Assembly (NCBI GenBank): GCA_028694925.1
Contig: JAQVJW010000003.1
Location: forward strand, 1 to 50,918
Length of the DNA stretch: 50,918 nucleotides
Direction: 5' to 3'
Origin: Patescibacteria group bacterium
Lineage (GTDB): Bacteria; Patescibacteriota; CPR2; UBA1875
A program made the translations under genes and the position numbers. Below the pieces are notes generated by a model, which had not been told where the DNA came from, ran no database searches, and saw only the letters and a list, made by a program, of their open reading frames with translations. Below are positions 17,052 through 24,357 of this stretch, piece by piece; within the stretch, counting starts at the first letter, position 1; each line of letters opens with the position of its first letter.

Positions 17052-20000
17052 ATGGCACAATCTTCGAATGTGGCGACCTCGGTAAAGAGAAAATATTACC
17101 GGCCGCTAGAATCGGTTTTAGACCTCCCAAATTTAATTGAAATCCAAACTAATTCTTACGAATGGTTTATCCGAGAGGGTATTAAAGAAGTTCTCGATGA
17201 AGTCAGCCCGATTGTTGACTTCTCTGGGAATCAATACTCTCTTTCCTTCGGTAATTATTACCTCGATGAGCCTAAGTACTCCGAAAAAGATTCCCGTAAA
17301 AAGAAGATTAACTATGAAGCCCCACTCAAAGTAGAGGTTTCTTTAAAGAATCTTGAAACTGGGAAAGTAAAAAAGCAAGAAGTTTTCCTTTCTGACTTAC
17401 CACTTATGACCGAGCAAGGCACCTTTATCATAAACGGTGTCGAACGGGTTATTATCTCCCAGCTTGTTAGGAGTGCTGGGGTATTCTTTACTGCGGAAGA
17501 AGTGGGGGGAAATAAGTTCTTTGGAGCAAAGGTCATTCCTGGCCGGGGTGCTTGGCTTGAACTCGAAACAGCTACAAATGGAGCGATCTATGCCAAGATC
17601 GACAGAAGAAGAAAGATTCCAATCACAACTTTGGTTCGGGCCTTTGGAGCATCAACTGATGAAGAGATTAAAAAGCTTTTTCGTGATGTTAATACTGACC
17701 CCGATATGAACTACATAGAGGCTACTCTCGAGAAGGACGTTACTACAAACGCCGACGAAGCCTTTATTGAGATTTACAAAAAGATTCGCCCTGGTGATCT
17801 TGCGACAGCCGAGAATGCCCGTCAACTTATTGAAGGGATGTTCTTTGACTTTAAGAAGTATGACCTATCGAGGGTTGGTCGTTACAAGATGAATCGGATG
17901 CTTGGATTTGATGTCCCAAACAAAAAAGAGAATCGTATTCTCCGAAAAGAAGATTTTATCGCAATTGTTAAAGAAGTAATCAAACGGAACGTTACACAGG
18001 GTGAGGCAACCGATATCGACCACCTTGCAAACAGAAGAGTAAGAGCAGTTGGGGAGCTTCTACAGCAACGATTCCGAGTCGGGGTTCTAAGGGCTGAGAG
18101 GAATATCAAAGACAGGATGTCGACCGCCGATCCTAAAGTGGTTAGTCCCTCATCGCTTATAAATATCCGGCCAATCTCTTCTGTCATCAAAGAGTTTTTC
18201 GCCTCGTCTCAGCTTTCTCAATTCATGGATCAAACAAACCCACTCTCAGAGCTTGTAAACAAGCGGCGTCTTTCAGCTTTAGGGCCTGGTGGGCTCAGCA
18301 AAGAGCGGGCTGGTTTTGATGTCCGTGATGTACACCGGACTCACTATGGCCGTATTTGTCCAAATGAAACTCCAGAAGGTCCAAATATTGGGCTTGTAAA
18401 CTATCTTGCTTCATATGCCAGAGTTAATGAATATGGCTTCCTTGAGACCCCTTATAGGAAGGTTATCGGTCGGGTTGCAAATGATGGTAAAGCAGCCGAG
18501 GGTTACAAGATGGGAGAAACGATCACAGGAATCGGGAAAAAAGGCGAGAAGATCACAAAGACAATTGCGGGAAAAATCGCAAAAAAGAAAGACCTAAAAG
18601 AGATTAAAGTTATTCCAGTTGTGACTAAAGAGGTTGAATACTTAACCGCTGATGTAGAAGAGGCGGCTGTTATTGCGCAGGCTAATACTGAGATCACAAG
18701 TGATGGTCATTTTAAAAACGAATTAATTACCGTTCGTAAAAATGGTGAAGCTGCCGAAGCTTCGATAGATGAAGTAACCTATATGGATGTTGCTTCAGAG
18801 CAGATTGTTTCTGTCTCGACTGGGCTTGTGCCGTTTCTTGAACATGATGATGGTAAGAGAAACTTGATGGCTGCCAACATGCAACGTCAGGCAGTCCCCC
18901 TCCTTGCCCCAGAAGCCCCAATTGTCGGAACAGGTCTTGAAAAGAAAGTTGCCAAAGATTCTGGGCTAACAATCTTTGCCCCTGAGCCTGGTAAAGTCCT
19001 TTCAGTTACGGGGGCTACTCTTAAGGTAAGATTCGATAAGAGGGGTGAGGAGCTCATCGAGCTTAAAAAGTATCAAAGAACTAATGATGACACCTGTATT
19101 AACCAACGAGCGGTAGTCGAAGAAGGCCACAGATTCAAGAAGGGCGATGTCCTTATAGATGGTCCGGCGGCCGAGGGAGGAGAACTCGCGATTGGTCAAA
19201 ACCTCCTTGTCGCCTACATGGCCTTCTCTGGTTACAACTATGAAGACGCCATTATAATCTCAGAACGGTTGGTCAAAGAAGATACCTATAGTTCAGTTCA
19301 TCTTGAACTCTTTACGATTGACGTTCGGGACACAAAGCTTGGTGCCGAGATGGTGACGAGAGATATCCCAAATGTATCCGAGGAATCACTTCGAAACCTT
19401 GATGAAGACGGTATTATCAGAATTGGGGCTGAGGTAGAGCCAGGTGATATCCTGGTTGGTAAAATTACACCAAAAGGGGAGACAGAGCTTTCGGCCGAGG
19501 AGAGGCTCCTTCGGGCTATCTTTGGTGAAAAGGCTCGGGATGTTAAAGATACCTCACTTCGGGTTCAACCTGGAGTTCATGGTAAGGTCGTTGATGTTTC
19601 TGCAAGAGAAAGAGATAAAGGAGATGATCTTCCAGCCGGGGTTATAAAACAAATAGATGTTCTTGTCGCAAAATTAGTTAAAATTACGGTGGGAGATAAG
19701 ATGGCGAACCGTCACGGTAACAAAGGTGTTATCGCTCGGATTGCTCCAGTTGAAGATATGCCCTATCTTGCCGATGGTACCCCAGTTGATATGGTTCTAA
19801 ACCCACTTGGCGTCTCGGCTCGTATGAATGTTGGGCAGATTCTTGAAACTCATCTTGGTTGGGCGGCCCTTGCTCTTGGCATTAAGGTTGCCTCACCAGT
19901 ATTTATGGGACCTTCCCCAGAGATGATCAAAGAAGAACTTAGAAATGCCGGTCTCCCAGAAGATGGGAAAACCGTCCTTTATGACGGCCGAACTGGAGAT

Positions 20001-20555
20001 GCCTTCGAGGAGCGGGTAACGGTCGGCATAACCTATGTGCTTAAGCTACACCACATGGTGGAAGACAAGATCCACGCTCGGTCAATTGGTTCATATGCGA
20101 TGGTTACTCAGCAACCACTTGGTGGTAAGGCGCAATTCGGTGGACAACGTTTCGGTGAAATGGAAGTTTGGGCCCTTGAGGCCTATGGGGCAGCTCATAC
20201 CCTCCAAGAGGTTCTAACGATTAAATCAGATGATGTTCTTGGGCGTTCAAGAGCCTATGAAGCCATCATTAAAGGTGATGTTATCACCGAACCTCGAGTG
20301 CCAGAATCTTTCAATGTGCTTGTAAAAGAGCTTCAAGGGCTTGGTCTTGCGATTGACCTTCTCTCAGATGTCAAAAATGAAGAGGTTTCGGCTGACGAAG
20401 TGATTGAAGAAGGTTACGAAGAGGGGATTAAAGATTTAAAAGACTCGGGTCTTATTGAGGGAAGTGTAGCGGCTAATCTACCGAAGATAGATGTTGAAAA
20501 GGAGGCTCAGATAGATGAATTTGAGGCTATAAAGGAGGATAAAGATGCAAAATAG
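17052..20555 (+). CDS. rpoB: RNA polymerase beta subunit
   Basis: SQLSQFMDQ, ETPEGPNIGL, NYEDA, GDKMANRHGNKG, GGQRFGEMEVWALEAYGA. Confidence 0.99.
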   Translation: MAQSSNVATSVKRKYYRPLESVLDLPNLIEIQTNSYEWFIREGIKEVLDEVSPIVDFSGNQYSLSFGNYYLDEPKYSEKDSRKKKINYEAPLKVEVSLKNLETGKVKKQEVFLSDLPLMTEQGTFIINGVERVIISQLVRSAGVFFTAEEVGGNKFFGAKVIPGRGAWLELETATNGAIYAKIDRRRKIPITTLVRAFGASTDEEIKKLFRDVNTDPDMNYIEATLEKDVTTNADEAFIEIYKKIRPGDLATAENARQLIEGMFFDFKKYDLSRVGRYKMNRMLGFDVPNKKENRILRKEDFIAIVKEVIKRNVTQGEATDIDHLANRRVRAVGELLQQRFRVGVLRAERNIKDRMSTADPKVVSPSSLINIRPISSVIKEFFASSQLSQFMDQTNPLSELVNKRRLSALGPGGLSKERAGFDVRDVHRTHYGRICPNETPEGPNIGLVNYLASYARVNEYGFLETPYRKVIGRVANDGKAAEGYKMGETITGIGKKGEKITKTIAGKIAKKKDLKEIKVIPVVTKEVEYLTADVEEAAVIAQANTEITSDGHFKNELITVRKNGEAAEASIDEVTYMDVASEQIVSVSTGLVPFLEHDDGKRNLMAANMQRQAVPLLAPEAPIVGTGLEKKVAKDSGLTIFAPEPGKVLSVTGATLKVRFDKRGEELIELKKYQRTNDDTCINQRAVVEEGHRFKKGDVLIDGPAAEGGELAIGQNLLVAYMAFSGYNYEDAIIISERLVKEDTYSSVHLELFTIDVRDTKLGAEMVTRDIPNVSEESLRNLDEDGIIRIGAEVEPGDILVGKITPKGETELSAEERLLRAIFGEKARDVKDTSLRVQPGVHGKVVDVSARERDKGDDLPAGVIKQIDVLVAKLVKITVGDKMANRHGNKGVIARIAPVEDMPYLADGTPVDMVLNPLGVSARMNVGQILETHLGWAALALGIKVASPVFMGPSPEMIKEELRNAGLPEDGKTVLYDGRTGDAFEERVTVGITYVLKLHHMVEDKIHARSIGSYAMVTQQPLGGKAQFGGQRFGEMEVWALEAYGAAHTLQEVLTIKSDDVLGRSRAYEAIIKGDVITEPRVPESFNVLVKELQGLGLAIDLLSDVKNEEVSADEVIEEGYEEGIKDLKDSGLIEGSVAANLPKIDVEKEAQIDEFEAIKEDKDAK

Positions 20556-23500
20556 GGAAATGAAAGAAGAACACAGAGCCGAGGATTTTAGCGCTATTAG
20601 AATTTCGATTGCCTCACCAGAAGATATCTTAAAGTGGTCTCACGGCGAGGTCACCAAACCAGAGACAATCAATTATCGTACCCTAAAGCCAGAGAAAGAC
20701 GGTCTATTCTGCGAGCGAATTTTTGGTCCAGATAAAGACTGGGAGTGTTACTGTGGTAAATACAAGAAAATTAGACATAAAGGGGTCGTCTGCGACAAGT
20801 GTGGGGTTGAGGTTACAAGGAGTGTTGTCAGACGTGAACGAATGGGCCATATTGAGCTCGCTGTTCCGGTAACCCATATTTGGTTTCTTCGAGGTGTTCC
20901 ATCCTCAATTGGTCTTGTCCTTGGGATGAGCGTTCGTGACCTTGAAAGGGTAGTCTATTTTATCTCATATATCGTTACTGAGGTAGATGAAGCGGCCAGA
21001 GAAGAGATGAAGAAATCGCTTGATAGGGAATTTAAGGATAAAAAGAAAAAATATACCAAGGAAATAGAAGATGAAAAAGAGCTTAAAGAGAAGCTTGAAC
21101 ACCTAGACCAGAGTCTTAAAGATGCCCGAAGTGAACTTGTCGCGATTCAAAAATATTCGGTTCTCTCGGAACTTAAATATCGAGAGTACTCACTTAAGTA
21201 TGGTAACGTCTTTAAGGCCCAGATCGGGACCGAAGCCATCCTTGAGCTACTTCGCGAAATCGACCTAAAGAAACTAGAAGAGGAACTTGAAGCCGAGGTG
21301 GCAGAGTTTACTGGCCAAAAGAAAAAGAAATCCCTAAAGAGACTCAAGGTTATTCAGGGGCTACTCTCCGCCAATATCAGGCCGGAGTGGATGATCGTCA
21401 AGAACTTACCGGTTATTCCTCCAGGGCTTAGGCCAATGGTTCAGCTTGATGGTGGTCGTTTTGCAACCGCTGATCTTAACGACCTTTATCGAAGGGTTAT
21501 CAACCGCAATAATCGTCTTAAGAAGCTAATTGCTCAGGATGCCCCAGAAGTGATTATCAGAAACGAAAAGAGAATGCTTCAGGAAGCGGTTGACGCCTTA
21601 ATTGATAATAATGCGAGGAGAGATAAAGCCGCCAGTGGTCAAAATAGACGAAAGCTTCGTTCAATCGCTGACATGCTTAAAGGTAAACAAGGCCGTTTTC
21701 GACAGAACCTTCTAGGAAAGCGAGTTGACTACTCCGGTCGTTCTGTAATTGTGGCCGGACCAGAGCTTAAGATGGAGCAGTGTGGTCTTCCGAAGATGAT
21801 GGCTCTTGAGCTCTTTAAGCCATTTGTGATCTCAAAACTTGTTGGTAGCGGTATTGCTCATAATATTAAGAGCGCTTCAAGGATGATTGAAAGAGGTCAT
21901 AGTGAGGTTTGGGATGCCCTTGATGAAGTAATAGAGAATAAATACGTACTTCTAAACCGAGCGCCAACTCTTCACCGTTTGGGTATTCAGGCCTTCTTAC
22001 CAGTCCTAATTGAAGGTAAGGCTATTCAGCTTCATCCTTTAGTTTGTGAGGCCTATAACGCAGACTTTGACGGAGACCAGATGGCGGTTCATGTACCGTT
22101 ATCTCGGATGGCTCAAGCGGAAGCAGAGCAAATCATGATCTCAAGAAGAAACCTCCTAAAGCCAGCTGCTGGTGAACCGGTAGTAAATCCACGTCATGAG
22201 ATGACCCTTGGAATCTACTGGATGACCCAAGAAGAAGAGGGTGCTAAAGGAGAAGGGAAAATCTTCGGAACAGAGGAAGAGGCCATCACTTTCTATAATA
22301 TCGGGGCCGTCTCCCTTCGAGCTAAAGTTAAAATTCGAGTTAAGGGAAAAGTGCTTGATACAACAATCGGTCGGGTAGTCTTTAACCAAAAGCTTCCGGA
22401 AGATATGGAGTTTATAAACGAAGAGATTAGTAAGAAGAAAACGATGGAGATCATCAAAAAGCTCTATGATAATTATGGTTCAGAAGCAACCTCAGAATTC
22501 CTTGATGGAATTAAGGACCTTGGATTTAAGTTTGCTACCAGGTCCGGACTCTCATTCTCTATGGACGATGCCACGGTACCAGTAGAGAAGGAAAAGCTTC
22601 TTGATGAGGCTGAAAAGAAGGTAATCGAAATCAGAAACCAGTTTGATGAAGGGTTCATTACAGAAGAAGAGAAATATACGTTGGCCGTAAAAATTTGGGA
22701 AGAAGCCAAAGAAAAAATCCAAGCAACAATGGAAAAGTCCCAAGATCCTAATTCGTTCCTTACAATCGCAAAAGACTCAGGAGCAAGAGGTGATATTAAG
22801 CAGATTAACCAGATTGCTGGGATGAAGGGTAATGTGATTAATGCGGCCGGAAGAATTATTGAGCTTCCGATAAAATCAAACTATAAAGAAGGACTTTCGG
22901 CGCTTGAATTCTTCATCTCAACCCACGGTACCAGGAAAGGTTTCTCAGACACTGCTCTTCGAACTTCAGACTCCGGTTACCTTACAAGAAGGCTTGTTGA
23001 TGTTGCCCAAGAAGTGACTGTTACCGAAAAGGACTGTGGTACCAAGGACGGACTTTTGGTAACTCGAGAGGAGTCTGTAAAGATCGGGGAAGAATATTCA
23101 CAACGTTTGATCTCCCGCTACACATCTGAAAAAATAGTTGACCCTAAAACTGGCGAAGTAGTCGTCCCGCGGGGCACCCTAATTAATGAGGAAATCTATG
23201 AGTTGATTGAGAAGCATGAGATTAACGAAGTTGTGATCCGTTCAATCCTTGAATGCGATACTCACTGGGGCGTCTGCCAGAAATGTTACGGTGCAGACCT
23301 TGCTTCTGGTGAACCGGTGGCTCTTGGTACGGCGGTCGGAATCATTGCTGCCCAATCGATTGGTGAGCCGGGAACTCAGCTTACGATGCGGACCGTTAAC
23401 ACCGGTGGAATTGTCGGTGTTGACATTACTCAAGGTCTACCACGTGTTCAAGAGCTCTTTGAAGCCAGGAAGCCAAAAGGTGAGGCTGTGCTTGCTGAGA

Positions 23501-24357
23501 TCGATGGCATTGTAAAAGTAGAGGCCGAAGGGAAGATGAAAAAAATCTCGGTTATCTCCGATCTGGTTGAAACCGAAGATTACGATATCAAAGGCTTTAA
23601 ACCAGCGGTAAAAAACAATGCTTTTGTTGAGACCCGGGACATTATTGCAGAGCGTGAAGGTAAACGTCCAATCAGAGCTAAATCAACCGGAATAGTCAAA
23701 TTCCGGGGTGATAAGATGACCCTTACAAAAGAGGCCGAAATGAAAGAATATCTTGTCTCGTCTCAAGCTAAAGTCCTTATTCCAGATGGGGAGAAGGTTA
23801 CCCGAGGGACCCAAATAACTGAAGGCTCTTGGAATCTTCAAAAGGCCCTCGAGCTTTGCGGTGAAGAAGCCGTTCAGCGCTATATCACCCTTGAGATTCA
23901 AAGGATTTATGCGACTCAAGGACAGATTATCGATGATAAACATATTGAAATAATCATCAGACAAATGTTCTCTCGGGCCAGGATCGAAGACCCGGGTGAT
24001 TCTAAGTTTATCACCGGTGACATCGTCTCAAGAAAAAATCTACTTGATGAGAACGAAAGGGTAAAGAAAGCCAAAAAGAAACCGGCTGTATATGAGAACT
24101 TACTGCTTTCAATCTCAAAAGTTTCTCACTCTTCGGATAGCTGGCTTTCAGCCGCTTCTTTCCAGGAGACTAACCGAGTCCTAATTTCAGCTTCTATCGA
24201 AGGACGGGTTGATTACCTAAAAGGGCTTAAAGAAAACGTTATAATCGGTAAACTGATTCCAGTTGGTACGGGCTATGACCCAAGTATCGTTACCCCAGCA
24301 CCACTGCCGGAGAAAGAAGAGAGGATCGATACCACGGAGGAGGAAGAAGATAAATAA
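20545..24357 (+). CDS. rpoC: RNA polymerase beta' subunit
   Basis: Zn ribbon, LLGKRVDYSGR, NADFDGD, bridge helix, trigger-loop region, SAASFQET. Confidence 0.99.
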   Translation: MQNREMKEEHRAEDFSAIRISIASPEDILKWSHGEVTKPETINYRTLKPEKDGLFCERIFGPDKDWECYCGKYKKIRHKGVVCDKCGVEVTRSVVRRERMGHIELAVPVTHIWFLRGVPSSIGLVLGMSVRDLERVVYFISYIVTEVDEAAREEMKKSLDREFKDKKKKYTKEIEDEKELKEKLEHLDQSLKDARSELVAIQKYSVLSELKYREYSLKYGNVFKAQIGTEAILELLREIDLKKLEEELEAEVAEFTGQKKKKSLKRLKVIQGLLSANIRPEWMIVKNLPVIPPGLRPMVQLDGGRFATADLNDLYRRVINRNNRLKKLIAQDAPEVIIRNEKRMLQEAVDALIDNNARRDKAASGQNRRKLRSIADMLKGKQGRFRQNLLGKRVDYSGRSVIVAGPELKMEQCGLPKMMALELFKPFVISKLVGSGIAHNIKSASRMIERGHSEVWDALDEVIENKYVLLNRAPTLHRLGIQAFLPVLIEGKAIQLHPLVCEAYNADFDGDQMAVHVPLSRMAQAEAEQIMISRRNLLKPAAGEPVVNPRHEMTLGIYWMTQEEEGAKGEGKIFGTEEEAITFYNIGAVSLRAKVKIRVKGKVLDTTIGRVVFNQKLPEDMEFINEEISKKKTMEIIKKLYDNYGSEATSEFLDGIKDLGFKFATRSGLSFSMDDATVPVEKEKLLDEAEKKVIEIRNQFDEGFITEEEKYTLAVKIWEEAKEKIQATMEKSQDPNSFLTIAKDSGARGDIKQINQIAGMKGNVINAAGRIIELPIKSNYKEGLSALEFFISTHGTRKGFSDTALRTSDSGYLTRRLVDVAQEVTVTEKDCGTKDGLLVTREESVKIGEEYSQRLISRYTSEKIVDPKTGEVVVPRGTLINEEIYELIEKHEINEVVIRSILECDTHWGVCQKCYGADLASGEPVALGTAVGIIAAQSIGEPGTQLTMRTVNTGGIVGVDITQGLPRVQELFEARKPKGEAVLAEIDGIVKVEAEGKMKKISVISDLVETEDYDIKGFKPAVKNNAFVETRDIIAEREGKRPIRAKSTGIVKFRGDKMTLTKEAEMKEYLVSSQAKVLIPDGEKVTRGTQITEGSWNLQKALELCGEEAVQRYITLEIQRIYATQGQIIDDKHIEIIIRQMFSRARIEDPGDSKFITGDIVSRKNLLDENERVKKAKKKPAVYENLLLSISKVSHSSDSWLSAASFQETNRVLISASIEGRVDYLKGLKENVIIGKLIPVGTGYDPSIVTPAPLPEKEERIDTTEEEEDK

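What the first reader, a model, noticed from the sequence alone, without database searches (positions are those of the whole stretch)
23386..23409. RNA polymerase trigger loop lacks the near-universal catalytic His
The trigger loop reads QLTMRTVNTGG instead of QLTMRTFHxGG: Phe->Val and His->Asn (E. coli beta' F935/H936, yeast Rpb1 H1085; here V951/N952, AAC at 23398-23400). This His contacts the incoming NTP and contributes to catalysis, fidelity and intrinsic cleavage. Two adjacent multi-nucleotide codon changes argue against a read error. The bridge-helix L->F could compensate for F->V. It implies a natural bacterial RNAP with a remodelled active centre.
Basis: partly seen in the sequence, partly recalled or inferred. 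Interest (0 to 1): 0.75.

Follow-up and report, generated by a model that had tools for sequence, protein, structure and literature searches.

The report
RNA polymerase lacking its trigger-loop histidine
The only RNA polymerase of this tiny-genome bacterium has Val-Asn where almost all life has Phe-His in the catalytic trigger loop; the change is real and conserved, but it is one of many independent natural losses of a histidine that textbooks call universal.

Summary
rpoC (20545-24357, +) reads GEPGTQLTMRTVNTGG; V951 (GTT, 23395-23397) and N952 (AAC, 23398-23400) align to E. coli beta' F935 and H936. It is the genome's only rpoC and is under strong purifying selection. V-N is shared by three genera of its family and by 12 further metagenomic 90%-identity clusters, so it is not an error.

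It arose in two steps. First Phe->Thr, together with bridge-helix A779T/L783F and beta-link A679T/N. Later His->Asn, with Thr->Val/Ile/Met.

It is not unique. In the same 28-species order, a sister family carries Gln, Lys or Arg at the His position. Most hits were small-genome gut Bacilli; cultured Actinomycetospora and Pseudonocardia also appeared. Parsimony on my enriched sample gives at least 15 independent losses.

My reading is that Asn serves as a weaker polar positional contact to the NTP beta-phosphate in a co-adapted active site, with GreA supplying RNA cleavage. This is inferred, not measured.

Papers from 2024-2026 still call this His universally conserved, and I found no report of these exceptions.

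The parts
20545..24357 (+). rpoC, RNA polymerase beta' subunit, 1270 aa; the only copy in the 665-kb genome
   Evidence: ORF and translation; Pfam Rpb1 domains 1-5; single match in the own genome; pN 0.09-0.13 against saturated pS of about 0.8 versus the sister genera
23347..23469 (+). Trigger loop without an SI3 insertion: AAQSIGEPGTQLTMRTVNTGGIVGVDITQGLPRVQELFEAR. Every canonical position is kept (the Gln, M932 and R933 equivalents, and the GG hinge) except the 935/936 pair.
23395..23397 (+). V951 (GTT), equivalent to E. coli beta' F935 and yeast Rpb1 F1084. Thr in the basal members of the family; Val, Ile or Met in the Asn-bearing members.
23398..23400 (+). N952 (AAC), equivalent to E. coli beta' H936 and yeast Rpb1 H1085, the residue that hydrogen-bonds the NTP beta-phosphate in the closed trigger loop
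   Evidence: role of the His from PMC13198411
22918..23010 (+). Bridge helix STHGTRKGFSDTALRTSDSGYLTRRLVDVAQ. T796 (22930-22932) = A779 and F800 (22942-22944) = L783, in the N-terminal hinge, which is the salinamide-resistance region. These changes are shared by every family member that lost TL Phe935.
   Evidence: hinge and resistance sites from PMC4029172
22057..22077 (+). Catalytic Mg-binding motif NADFDGD, intact
17052..20555 (+). rpoB, RNA polymerase beta subunit, 1167 aa; its end overlaps the rpoC start by 11 nt
18840..18890 (+). Beta 'link region' EHDDGKRNLMAANMQRQ. The NTP-contacting Arg (R678 equivalent, 18858-18860) is kept. The A679 equivalent is Asn (18861-18863). Thr or Asn at this position occurs in all five family-f1 genomes and independently in family f4, and never in genomes that keep TL Phe935.

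Best explanation
This is the organism's working housekeeping RNA polymerase. Asn952 has replaced the trigger-loop His as the side chain that positions the NTP triphosphate. The rest of the trigger loop is canonical, so it most likely still folds onto the substrate. Asn, being polar and shorter than His, probably reaches the beta-phosphate directly or through a water, giving a somewhat slower enzyme with weaker intrinsic RNA cleavage.

The change was reached in two steps:
1. Phe935->Thr, together with a repacking of the bridge-helix cap: beta' A779T and L783F, beta A679T/N.
2. His->Asn, together with Thr->Val/Ile/Met.

A canonical GreA with an intact acidic tip supplies factor-dependent cleavage. 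The variant is tolerated, and perhaps nearly neutral, in this slow-growing small-genome lineage. It is one case of a recurrent phenomenon.

Shown here: sequence state, single copy, purifying selection, order of events, and recurrence. Inferred: the phosphate contact, the kinetic cost, the compensation, and the slow growth of the lineage (not measured).
For: - V-N is at the F935/H936 positions, and the rest of the trigger loop, the NADFDGD motif and the beta R678 equivalent are intact.
- Single rpoC.
- pN 0.09-0.13 against saturated pS across the three V-N genera.
- The tree gives (T-H,(V-N,(V-N,V-N))) with 96-100% support. Metagenomic relatives add I-N, M-N and T-H forms, all with bridge helix GTRKGF.
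- Bridge-helix Phe783 and beta Thr/Asn679 occur only where TL 935 is not Phe.
- G000 has a GreA with a GDLSENSEY tip. All 18 other His-less genomes tested have a Gre factor.
- The sister family has Q, K or R at the same position in genomes and in 8 of 11 metagenomic clusters. All are polar or basic side chains that could reach a phosphate.
- Literature: the His acts as a positional catalyst, not an acid-base one, and E. coli H936Q is nearly wild type (PMC13198411). Yeast F1084 lies close to the Rpb2 link domain in the closed trigger loop (PMC12391331).
Against: - No biochemistry exists for any of these enzymes.
- In yeast Pol II, H1085N is lethal (PMC5127505), so tolerance here must depend on context that I have not identified for the His->Asn step itself.
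- The residues that co-vary track loss of Phe935, not loss of His.
- The coupling rests on 3-4 independent origins and fails a sign test for lack of contrasts.
- I could not measure distances in a structure.
- Gre factors are nearly ubiquitous in bacteria, so their presence is a weak argument.
Confidence: 0.68

Rival explanations
1. Adaptive escape. The changes were selected because they block a natural inhibitor or factor that binds the trigger loop, the bridge-helix cap or the secondary channel. Candidates are salinamide-like, streptolydigin-like or lasso-peptide compounds, or a host or phage protein. The precedent is alpha-amanitin, which contacts the same His in Pol II. The cap changes came first and the His change followed.
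For: - Beta' 779 and 783 are salinamide-resistance sites, and a larger side chain at 779 is predicted to clash with the drug (PMC4029172).
- The His position changed at least 4 times within 28 species while flanking trigger-loop residues stayed invariant. Sister family f5 shows H, Q, K and R on branches of about 0.1 substitutions per site.
- H->N recurs in about 8 separate places in the listing of one gut Bacilli order.
- Cultured, large-genome Actinomycetospora and Pseudonocardia carry Lys, so genome reduction alone does not explain every case.
Against: No inhibitor is known for these organisms. No resistance phenotype was tested. Recurrent change at one site also fits a site whose constraint is simply weaker than assumed. 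Most His-less lineages have small genomes, where drift is strong.
Confidence: 0.15
2. Pol IV-like degraded mode. The trigger loop no longer contacts the substrate usefully, so the enzyme is a slow polymerase prone to backtracking that depends on Gre factors. The changes are slightly deleterious and were fixed by drift.
For: Plant Pol IV has Ser at this position, its trigger loop does not touch the NTP, and it is several-fold less efficient (PMC11343019). The genome is 665 kb. Family f1 carries a second Gre-like gene.
Against: Unlike Pol IV, every other substrate-contacting trigger-loop residue and both hinges are conserved. The V/I/M-N pair itself is held constant across saturated synonymous divergence. 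This is also the cell's only RNAP.
Confidence: 0.12
3. Sequencing or assembly error, or a decaying gene copy.
For: Each codon is one nucleotide from TTT or CAC. The genome is a 32-contig assembly. Reads could not be inspected.
Against: The same two residues occur in two other genera with different codon usage (GTA AAC), in 12 further protein clusters from four data sources, and on 8 independent contigs for the sister species. The 1270-aa frame is intact and under purifying selection.
Confidence: 0.01

Closest known systems
Engineered E. coli beta' H936 and yeast Rpb1 H1085 substitutions (positional-catalyst work of the Landick and Kaplan laboratories)
   Same: The same residue is replaced in an otherwise canonical trigger loop. 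Gln is nearly wild type in E. coli and mildly defective in yeast. Leu is healthy in yeast. This shows that the His positions the substrate rather than acting as an acid.
   Different: Those are laboratory mutants in a wild-type context. Here the replacement is natural, fixed and ancient. Asn, the residue found here, is lethal in yeast Pol II, so the natural context must differ.
Plant RNA polymerase IV (NRPD1 S898 at the His position)
   Same: A natural multisubunit RNAP that lacks the trigger-loop His.
   Different: Pol IV is a specialised accessory enzyme. Its whole trigger loop has lost the substrate-contacting residues and does not touch the NTP. The RNAP here is the sole housekeeping enzyme and keeps all the other trigger-loop residues.
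Salinamide-resistant bridge-helix-cap mutants of E. coli RNAP (beta' 779, 782, 783; beta 675, 677)
   Same: Substitutions at beta' A779 and L783 and in the adjacent beta link region.
   Different: Those were selected by a drug in the laboratory. Here they are lineage-wide, they accompany loss of TL Phe935, and no drug phenotype is known.
Yeast Rpb1 F1084I gain-of-function allele
   Same: An aliphatic residue at the Phe next to the His. The allele shows strong context dependence (sign epistasis) with H1085 alleles.
   Different: In yeast, F1084I combined with H1085Y is lethal. In nature, Val, Ile or Met next to Asn is a stable combination in at least three lineages.

Membership tests
Bacterial RNA polymerase beta' subunit (RpoC) | Rpb1 domains 1-5 in order | tested here: met
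   Pfam hits PF04997, PF00623, PF04983, PF05000 and PF04998, all above their cut-offs
Bacterial RNA polymerase beta' subunit (RpoC) | Catalytic NADFDGD motif | tested here: met
   Residues 505-511, window 22057-22077
Bacterial RNA polymerase beta' subunit (RpoC) | rpoB-rpoC operon context and single copy | tested here: met
   rpoB lies directly upstream and overlaps rpoC. The sister species shows rpoB-rpoC followed by S12, S7 and EF-G genes. One match in the own genome.
Bacterial RNA polymerase beta' subunit (RpoC) | Trigger loop with the 'universally conserved' His that contacts the NTP beta-phosphate | tested here: not met
   Asn at the aligned position. The rest of the loop is canonical. 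Membership in RpoC is not in doubt; what fails is the claim of universality.
Pol IV-type RNAP with a non-contacting trigger loop | Loss of the His together with the other substrate-contacting trigger-loop residues | tested here: not met
   Only the 935/936 pair differs. The Gln, M932 and R933 equivalents and the hinges are kept. Pol IV features come from PMC11343019.
Pol IV-type RNAP with a non-contacting trigger loop | Accessory enzyme that exists beside a canonical polymerase | tested here: not met
   Only one rpoC in a genome that is 92% complete
Salinamide-resistant bridge-helix-cap variants | Larger side chain at beta' A779 and/or a substitution at L783 | tested here: met
   T796 and F800; resistance sites listed in PMC4029172
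Salinamide-resistant bridge-helix-cap variants | Measured resistance of the enzyme or the cell to the drug | not testable with these tools

The most novel reading that the evidence does not exclude
The trigger-loop His codon is a recurrent target of selection, not merely a tolerated loss. In this order (H, N, Q, K, R within 28 species, with invariant flanks) and in gut Bacilli (repeated H->N), the changes would be natural resistance alleles against an unknown inhibitor or factor that uses the His as its handle, as alpha-amanitin does in Pol II. The linked swap, in which TL Phe935 is lost and bridge-helix Phe783 is gained, would be a second, mechanically coupled adaptation of the same pocket.
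Probability: 0.12. Interest if true: 0.85.

Novelty: new variant of a known kind. Interest (0 to 1): 0.6.

Why it matters
Structural papers from 2024-2026 treat beta' H936 / Rpb1 H1085 as universally conserved and build the catalytic model around its contact with the NTP. This window, and the survey it led to, show that nature has replaced the His many times in sole housekeeping RNAPs: with Asn, Gln, Lys, Arg, Tyr or Trp.

These replacements occur in abundant human and animal gut Bacilli and in cultured actinomycetes that could be studied directly. They are ready-made tests of the positional-catalyst model and of context dependence, since Asn is lethal in yeast. The repeated pairing of trigger-loop Phe loss with bridge-helix Phe gain is a candidate structural coupling between the trigger loop and the bridge-helix cap, which is an antibiotic target site.

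Tried and rejected
- **Read support:** I used independent assemblies instead.
- **Second rpoC copy:** none was found in the own genome, nor in five other His-less genomes.
- **Taxon name:** the cluster look-up gave no names. The only hint is that a sister-family protein is labelled 'candidate division WS5'.
- **Phylogeny-aware test of the TL935 / bridge-helix 783 coupling:** only 4 contrasts exist, so it is not significant. I therefore do not rely on the raw Fisher P of 4e-27.
- **His loss linked to Phe935 loss in general:** rejected. In 12 contrasts, Phe935 almost never changes along with the His.
The family-specific changes are A676G, A679T/N and G682A.
- **E969Q in the second trigger helix:** considered as a partner of H->N. 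It is specific to the V-N clade here, but Gln at that position looked common in the Bacillota sequences I collected, so I left it open.
- **Papers:** Mishanina 2017 and Palo 2021 were not held. No supplements were held for Mueller 2026.
- **Gap in the global scan:** it did not cover Gln or CGN-Arg codons.

Full report
**What is there.** The window carries rpoB (17052-20555) and rpoC (20545-24357) on the + strand. RpoC is 1270 aa, has the five Rpb1 Pfam domains and the NADFDGD motif (22057-22077). Its trigger loop has no SI3 insertion and reads AAQSIGEPGTQLTMRTVNTGGIVGVDITQGLPRVQELFEAR (23347-23469). GTT at 23395-23397 is V951 and AAC at 23398-23400 is N952. The phmmer alignment to E. coli beta' chains (query 201-965 to chain 154-949) places these at F935 and H936. 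In the bridge helix, T796 = A779 and F800 = L783.

**Is it real?** The assembly is 665 kb in 32 contigs and 92% complete, and it holds one rpoC.
- Two other genera of the same family carry V-N with different codons (GTA AAC).
- In the 5.8-billion-protein collection, 12 further 90%-identity clusters from NCBI, JGI, ENA and Logan carry V-N, on contigs up to 582 kb.
- The sister species' exact protein occurs on 8 contigs, including two JGI samples and an NCBI assembly.
- Between the V-N genera, synonymous sites are saturated (pS about 0.8) while pN is 0.09-0.13. The gene is under strong purifying selection, and the pair has been kept over long divergence.

The conclusion that this is not an error does hold.

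**How it arose.** A DNA pattern for the trigger loop read out the pair in every genome of the order (28 species) and the class (32 species).
- Own family f1: V-N in three genomes, T-H in two.
- Family f4: T-H.
- Family f5: F-R twice, F-Q twice, F-K once, F-H once.
- Families f2, f3, f6, f7 and f8: F-H.

So 8 of the 25 order genomes with a readable loop lack the His. An RpoC tree gives (T-H,(V-N,(V-N,V-N))) with 96-100% support. It also places f4 (T-H) as sister to f6 (F-H) with 100% support. Phe935 was therefore probably lost twice in this order, and the His position needs at least four changes. Metagenomic relatives of f1 add I-N, M-N and more T-H forms. Relatives of f5 are F-R (4), F-Q (3), F-K (1) and F-H (3). 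The order of events in f1 is Phe->Thr first, then His->Asn together with Thr->Val/Ile/Met.

**Co-varying residues.**
- Every RpoC of f1 and f4 that lost Phe935 has bridge helix HG[T/V]RK[G/I]F instead of HGARKGL, that is A779T/V and L783F.
- Across all RpoCs I collected, bridge-helix Phe783 occurs in 0 of 200 with TL Phe935 and in 35 of 61 without it, always with a non-Ala residue at 779.
- A third origin lies in gut Bacilli: IRKGF occurs in 10 of 35 I-N genomes and in 0 of 56 F-N genomes.
- In the beta subunit, the link region reads EHDDGKR[N/T]L in all five f1 genomes and EHDESKRTL in f4, against R-A-L in every genome that keeps Phe935. The same A679T appears in two I-N Bacilli and in none of 22 F-N Bacilli.
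[quoted passage not shown] The closed trigger loop abuts that pocket (PMC4029172). In yeast, F1084 lies close to the Rpb2 link domain in the closed state (PMC12391331).

There are only four independent contrasts: the bridge helix follows in 2-3 of them and never goes the opposite way, and the sign test cannot reach significance. One V-N Clostridia genome keeps Leu783. I could not measure distances in a structure. These changes precede the loss of His, and I found no convincing partner for the His->Asn step itself.

**It is not unique.** Translated:

| Pair at 935/936 | Loci | Where |
|---|---|---|
| F-N | 58 | almost all small-genome gut Bacilli / 'Tenericutes' MAGs |
| I-N | 37 | almost all small-genome gut Bacilli / 'Tenericutes' MAGs |
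| F-K | 9 | cultured Actinomycetospora and Pseudonocardia, Saccharibacteria, one Clostridia MAG |
| F-Y | 6 | WWE3, Hepatoplasma, Gammaproteobacteria MAGs, Anaerolineaceae |
| F-R | 4 | three Oscillospiraceae MAGs and one further MAG |
| V-N | 2 | rabbit-gut Clostridia MAGs (convergent) |
| F-W | 2 | one WWE3 MAG and one Patescibacteria-group MAG |
| K-W | 2 | Woesearchaeota (archaea) |

Gln and CGN-Arg were not covered by that pattern. The five genomes I checked each have a single rpoC. In the gut Bacilli order, 14 of 125 evenly sampled species carry Asn, at about eight separate places in the listing. Parsimony on a FastTree of 317 fragments gives at least 15 losses of the His. That sample is enriched for non-His sequences, so it gives a count of events, not a frequency. 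In a 401-genome sample of the window's phylum, every listed match outside its own order was F-H. That list was truncated, and 104 genomes did not match the pattern; at least some RpoCs with other loop-tip sequences would escape it.

**Mechanism.** The His hydrogen-bonds the NTP beta-phosphate in the closed loop and is now regarded as a positional catalyst, not an acid-base one. E. coli H936Q is almost wild type (PMC13198411). H936A slows cleavage of misincorporated ends more than 30-fold (PMC8421135). In yeast, Q is mild, L is healthy, K/R/Y/W are severe, and N is lethal (PMC5127505).

Because the rest of this trigger loop is canonical, the most likely reading is that it still closes on the substrate. 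Asn952 would then contact the phosphate directly or through a water, at some kinetic cost, in a co-adapted pocket. The genome encodes a GreA with the GDLSENSEY acidic tip on another contig. It also encodes a second short Gre-like protein without that tip, found in four of the five f1 genomes, the fifth being a fragmented assembly. Factor-dependent cleavage is therefore available. All 18 other His-less genomes tested have a Gre factor, but Gre is nearly ubiquitous, so this is only consistent. Every kinetic and structural statement in this section is inference.

**Rivals.**
- Escape from an inhibitor fits the salinamide-site changes and the rapid turnover at one codon, but it has no direct support.
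- A Pol IV-like degraded mode (PMC11343019) is unlikely. All other contact residues are kept, and this is the only polymerase.
- An artefact is excluded.

**Novelty.** Papers from 2024-2026 call the His universally conserved or invariant. Searches combining 'trigger loop' with Patescibacteria, candidate phyla radiation, or natural replacement of the His found no report of bacterial exceptions. The held library is incomplete, so this is not proof of absence. I rate it a new variant of a known kind: interesting less for this one genome than for the pattern it exposes.

Noticed in passing
other genomes of the window's order (G008, G013, G015, G017, G021); loci L005, L006, L008, L010, L025: Sister family f5 has Gln, Lys or Arg (two different Arg codons) at the trigger-loop His position on branches of about 0.1 substitutions per site, with invariant flanking residues. 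In the beta subunit it also has GGKAQ-N-GGQRF where the other families have Phe, Met or Arg.
   Followed up: partly
G000 contig C7:28259-28801 (minus strand), outside the window: A second Gre-family gene with a short N-terminal coiled coil and no acidic DxxE tip (Rnk/Gfh-like). It is present in four of the five family-f1 genomes; most other genomes of the order have a single Gre gene.
   Followed up: partly
about 20 genomes of one other family (f24) in the phylum sample, e.g. G047, G074: The trigger loop reads QMTMQTFHKGG, so the Arg933 equivalent, another phosphate-contacting residue, is Gln throughout that family.
   Followed up: no
G013 contig C19:1027-7035 (minus strand): A single 2862-aa open frame matches both RpoB (30% identity) and RpoC (31-34% identity). 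It is a second, highly divergent, fused beta-beta'-like gene beside the normal rpoBC; it could belong to a mobile element or be contamination.
   Followed up: no
L050, L054, L105, L116, L143 (Actinomycetospora soli, A. termitidis, Pseudonocardia sp.): Cultured actinomycetes with 6.5-8 Mb genomes and a single rpoC carry MRTFKQGG, with Lys at the His position. They are experimentally accessible His-less RNAPs.
   Followed up: partly
L104, L121 (Woesearchaeota): An archaeal largest-subunit fragment reads MRTKWLGG at the aligned positions. I did not examine whether the alignment is in register.
   Followed up: no
window 22054-22056: The residue before NADFDGD is Tyr in the V-N clade, as in E. coli, but Phe in nearly all other members of the class, including the T-H relative.
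   Followed up: no
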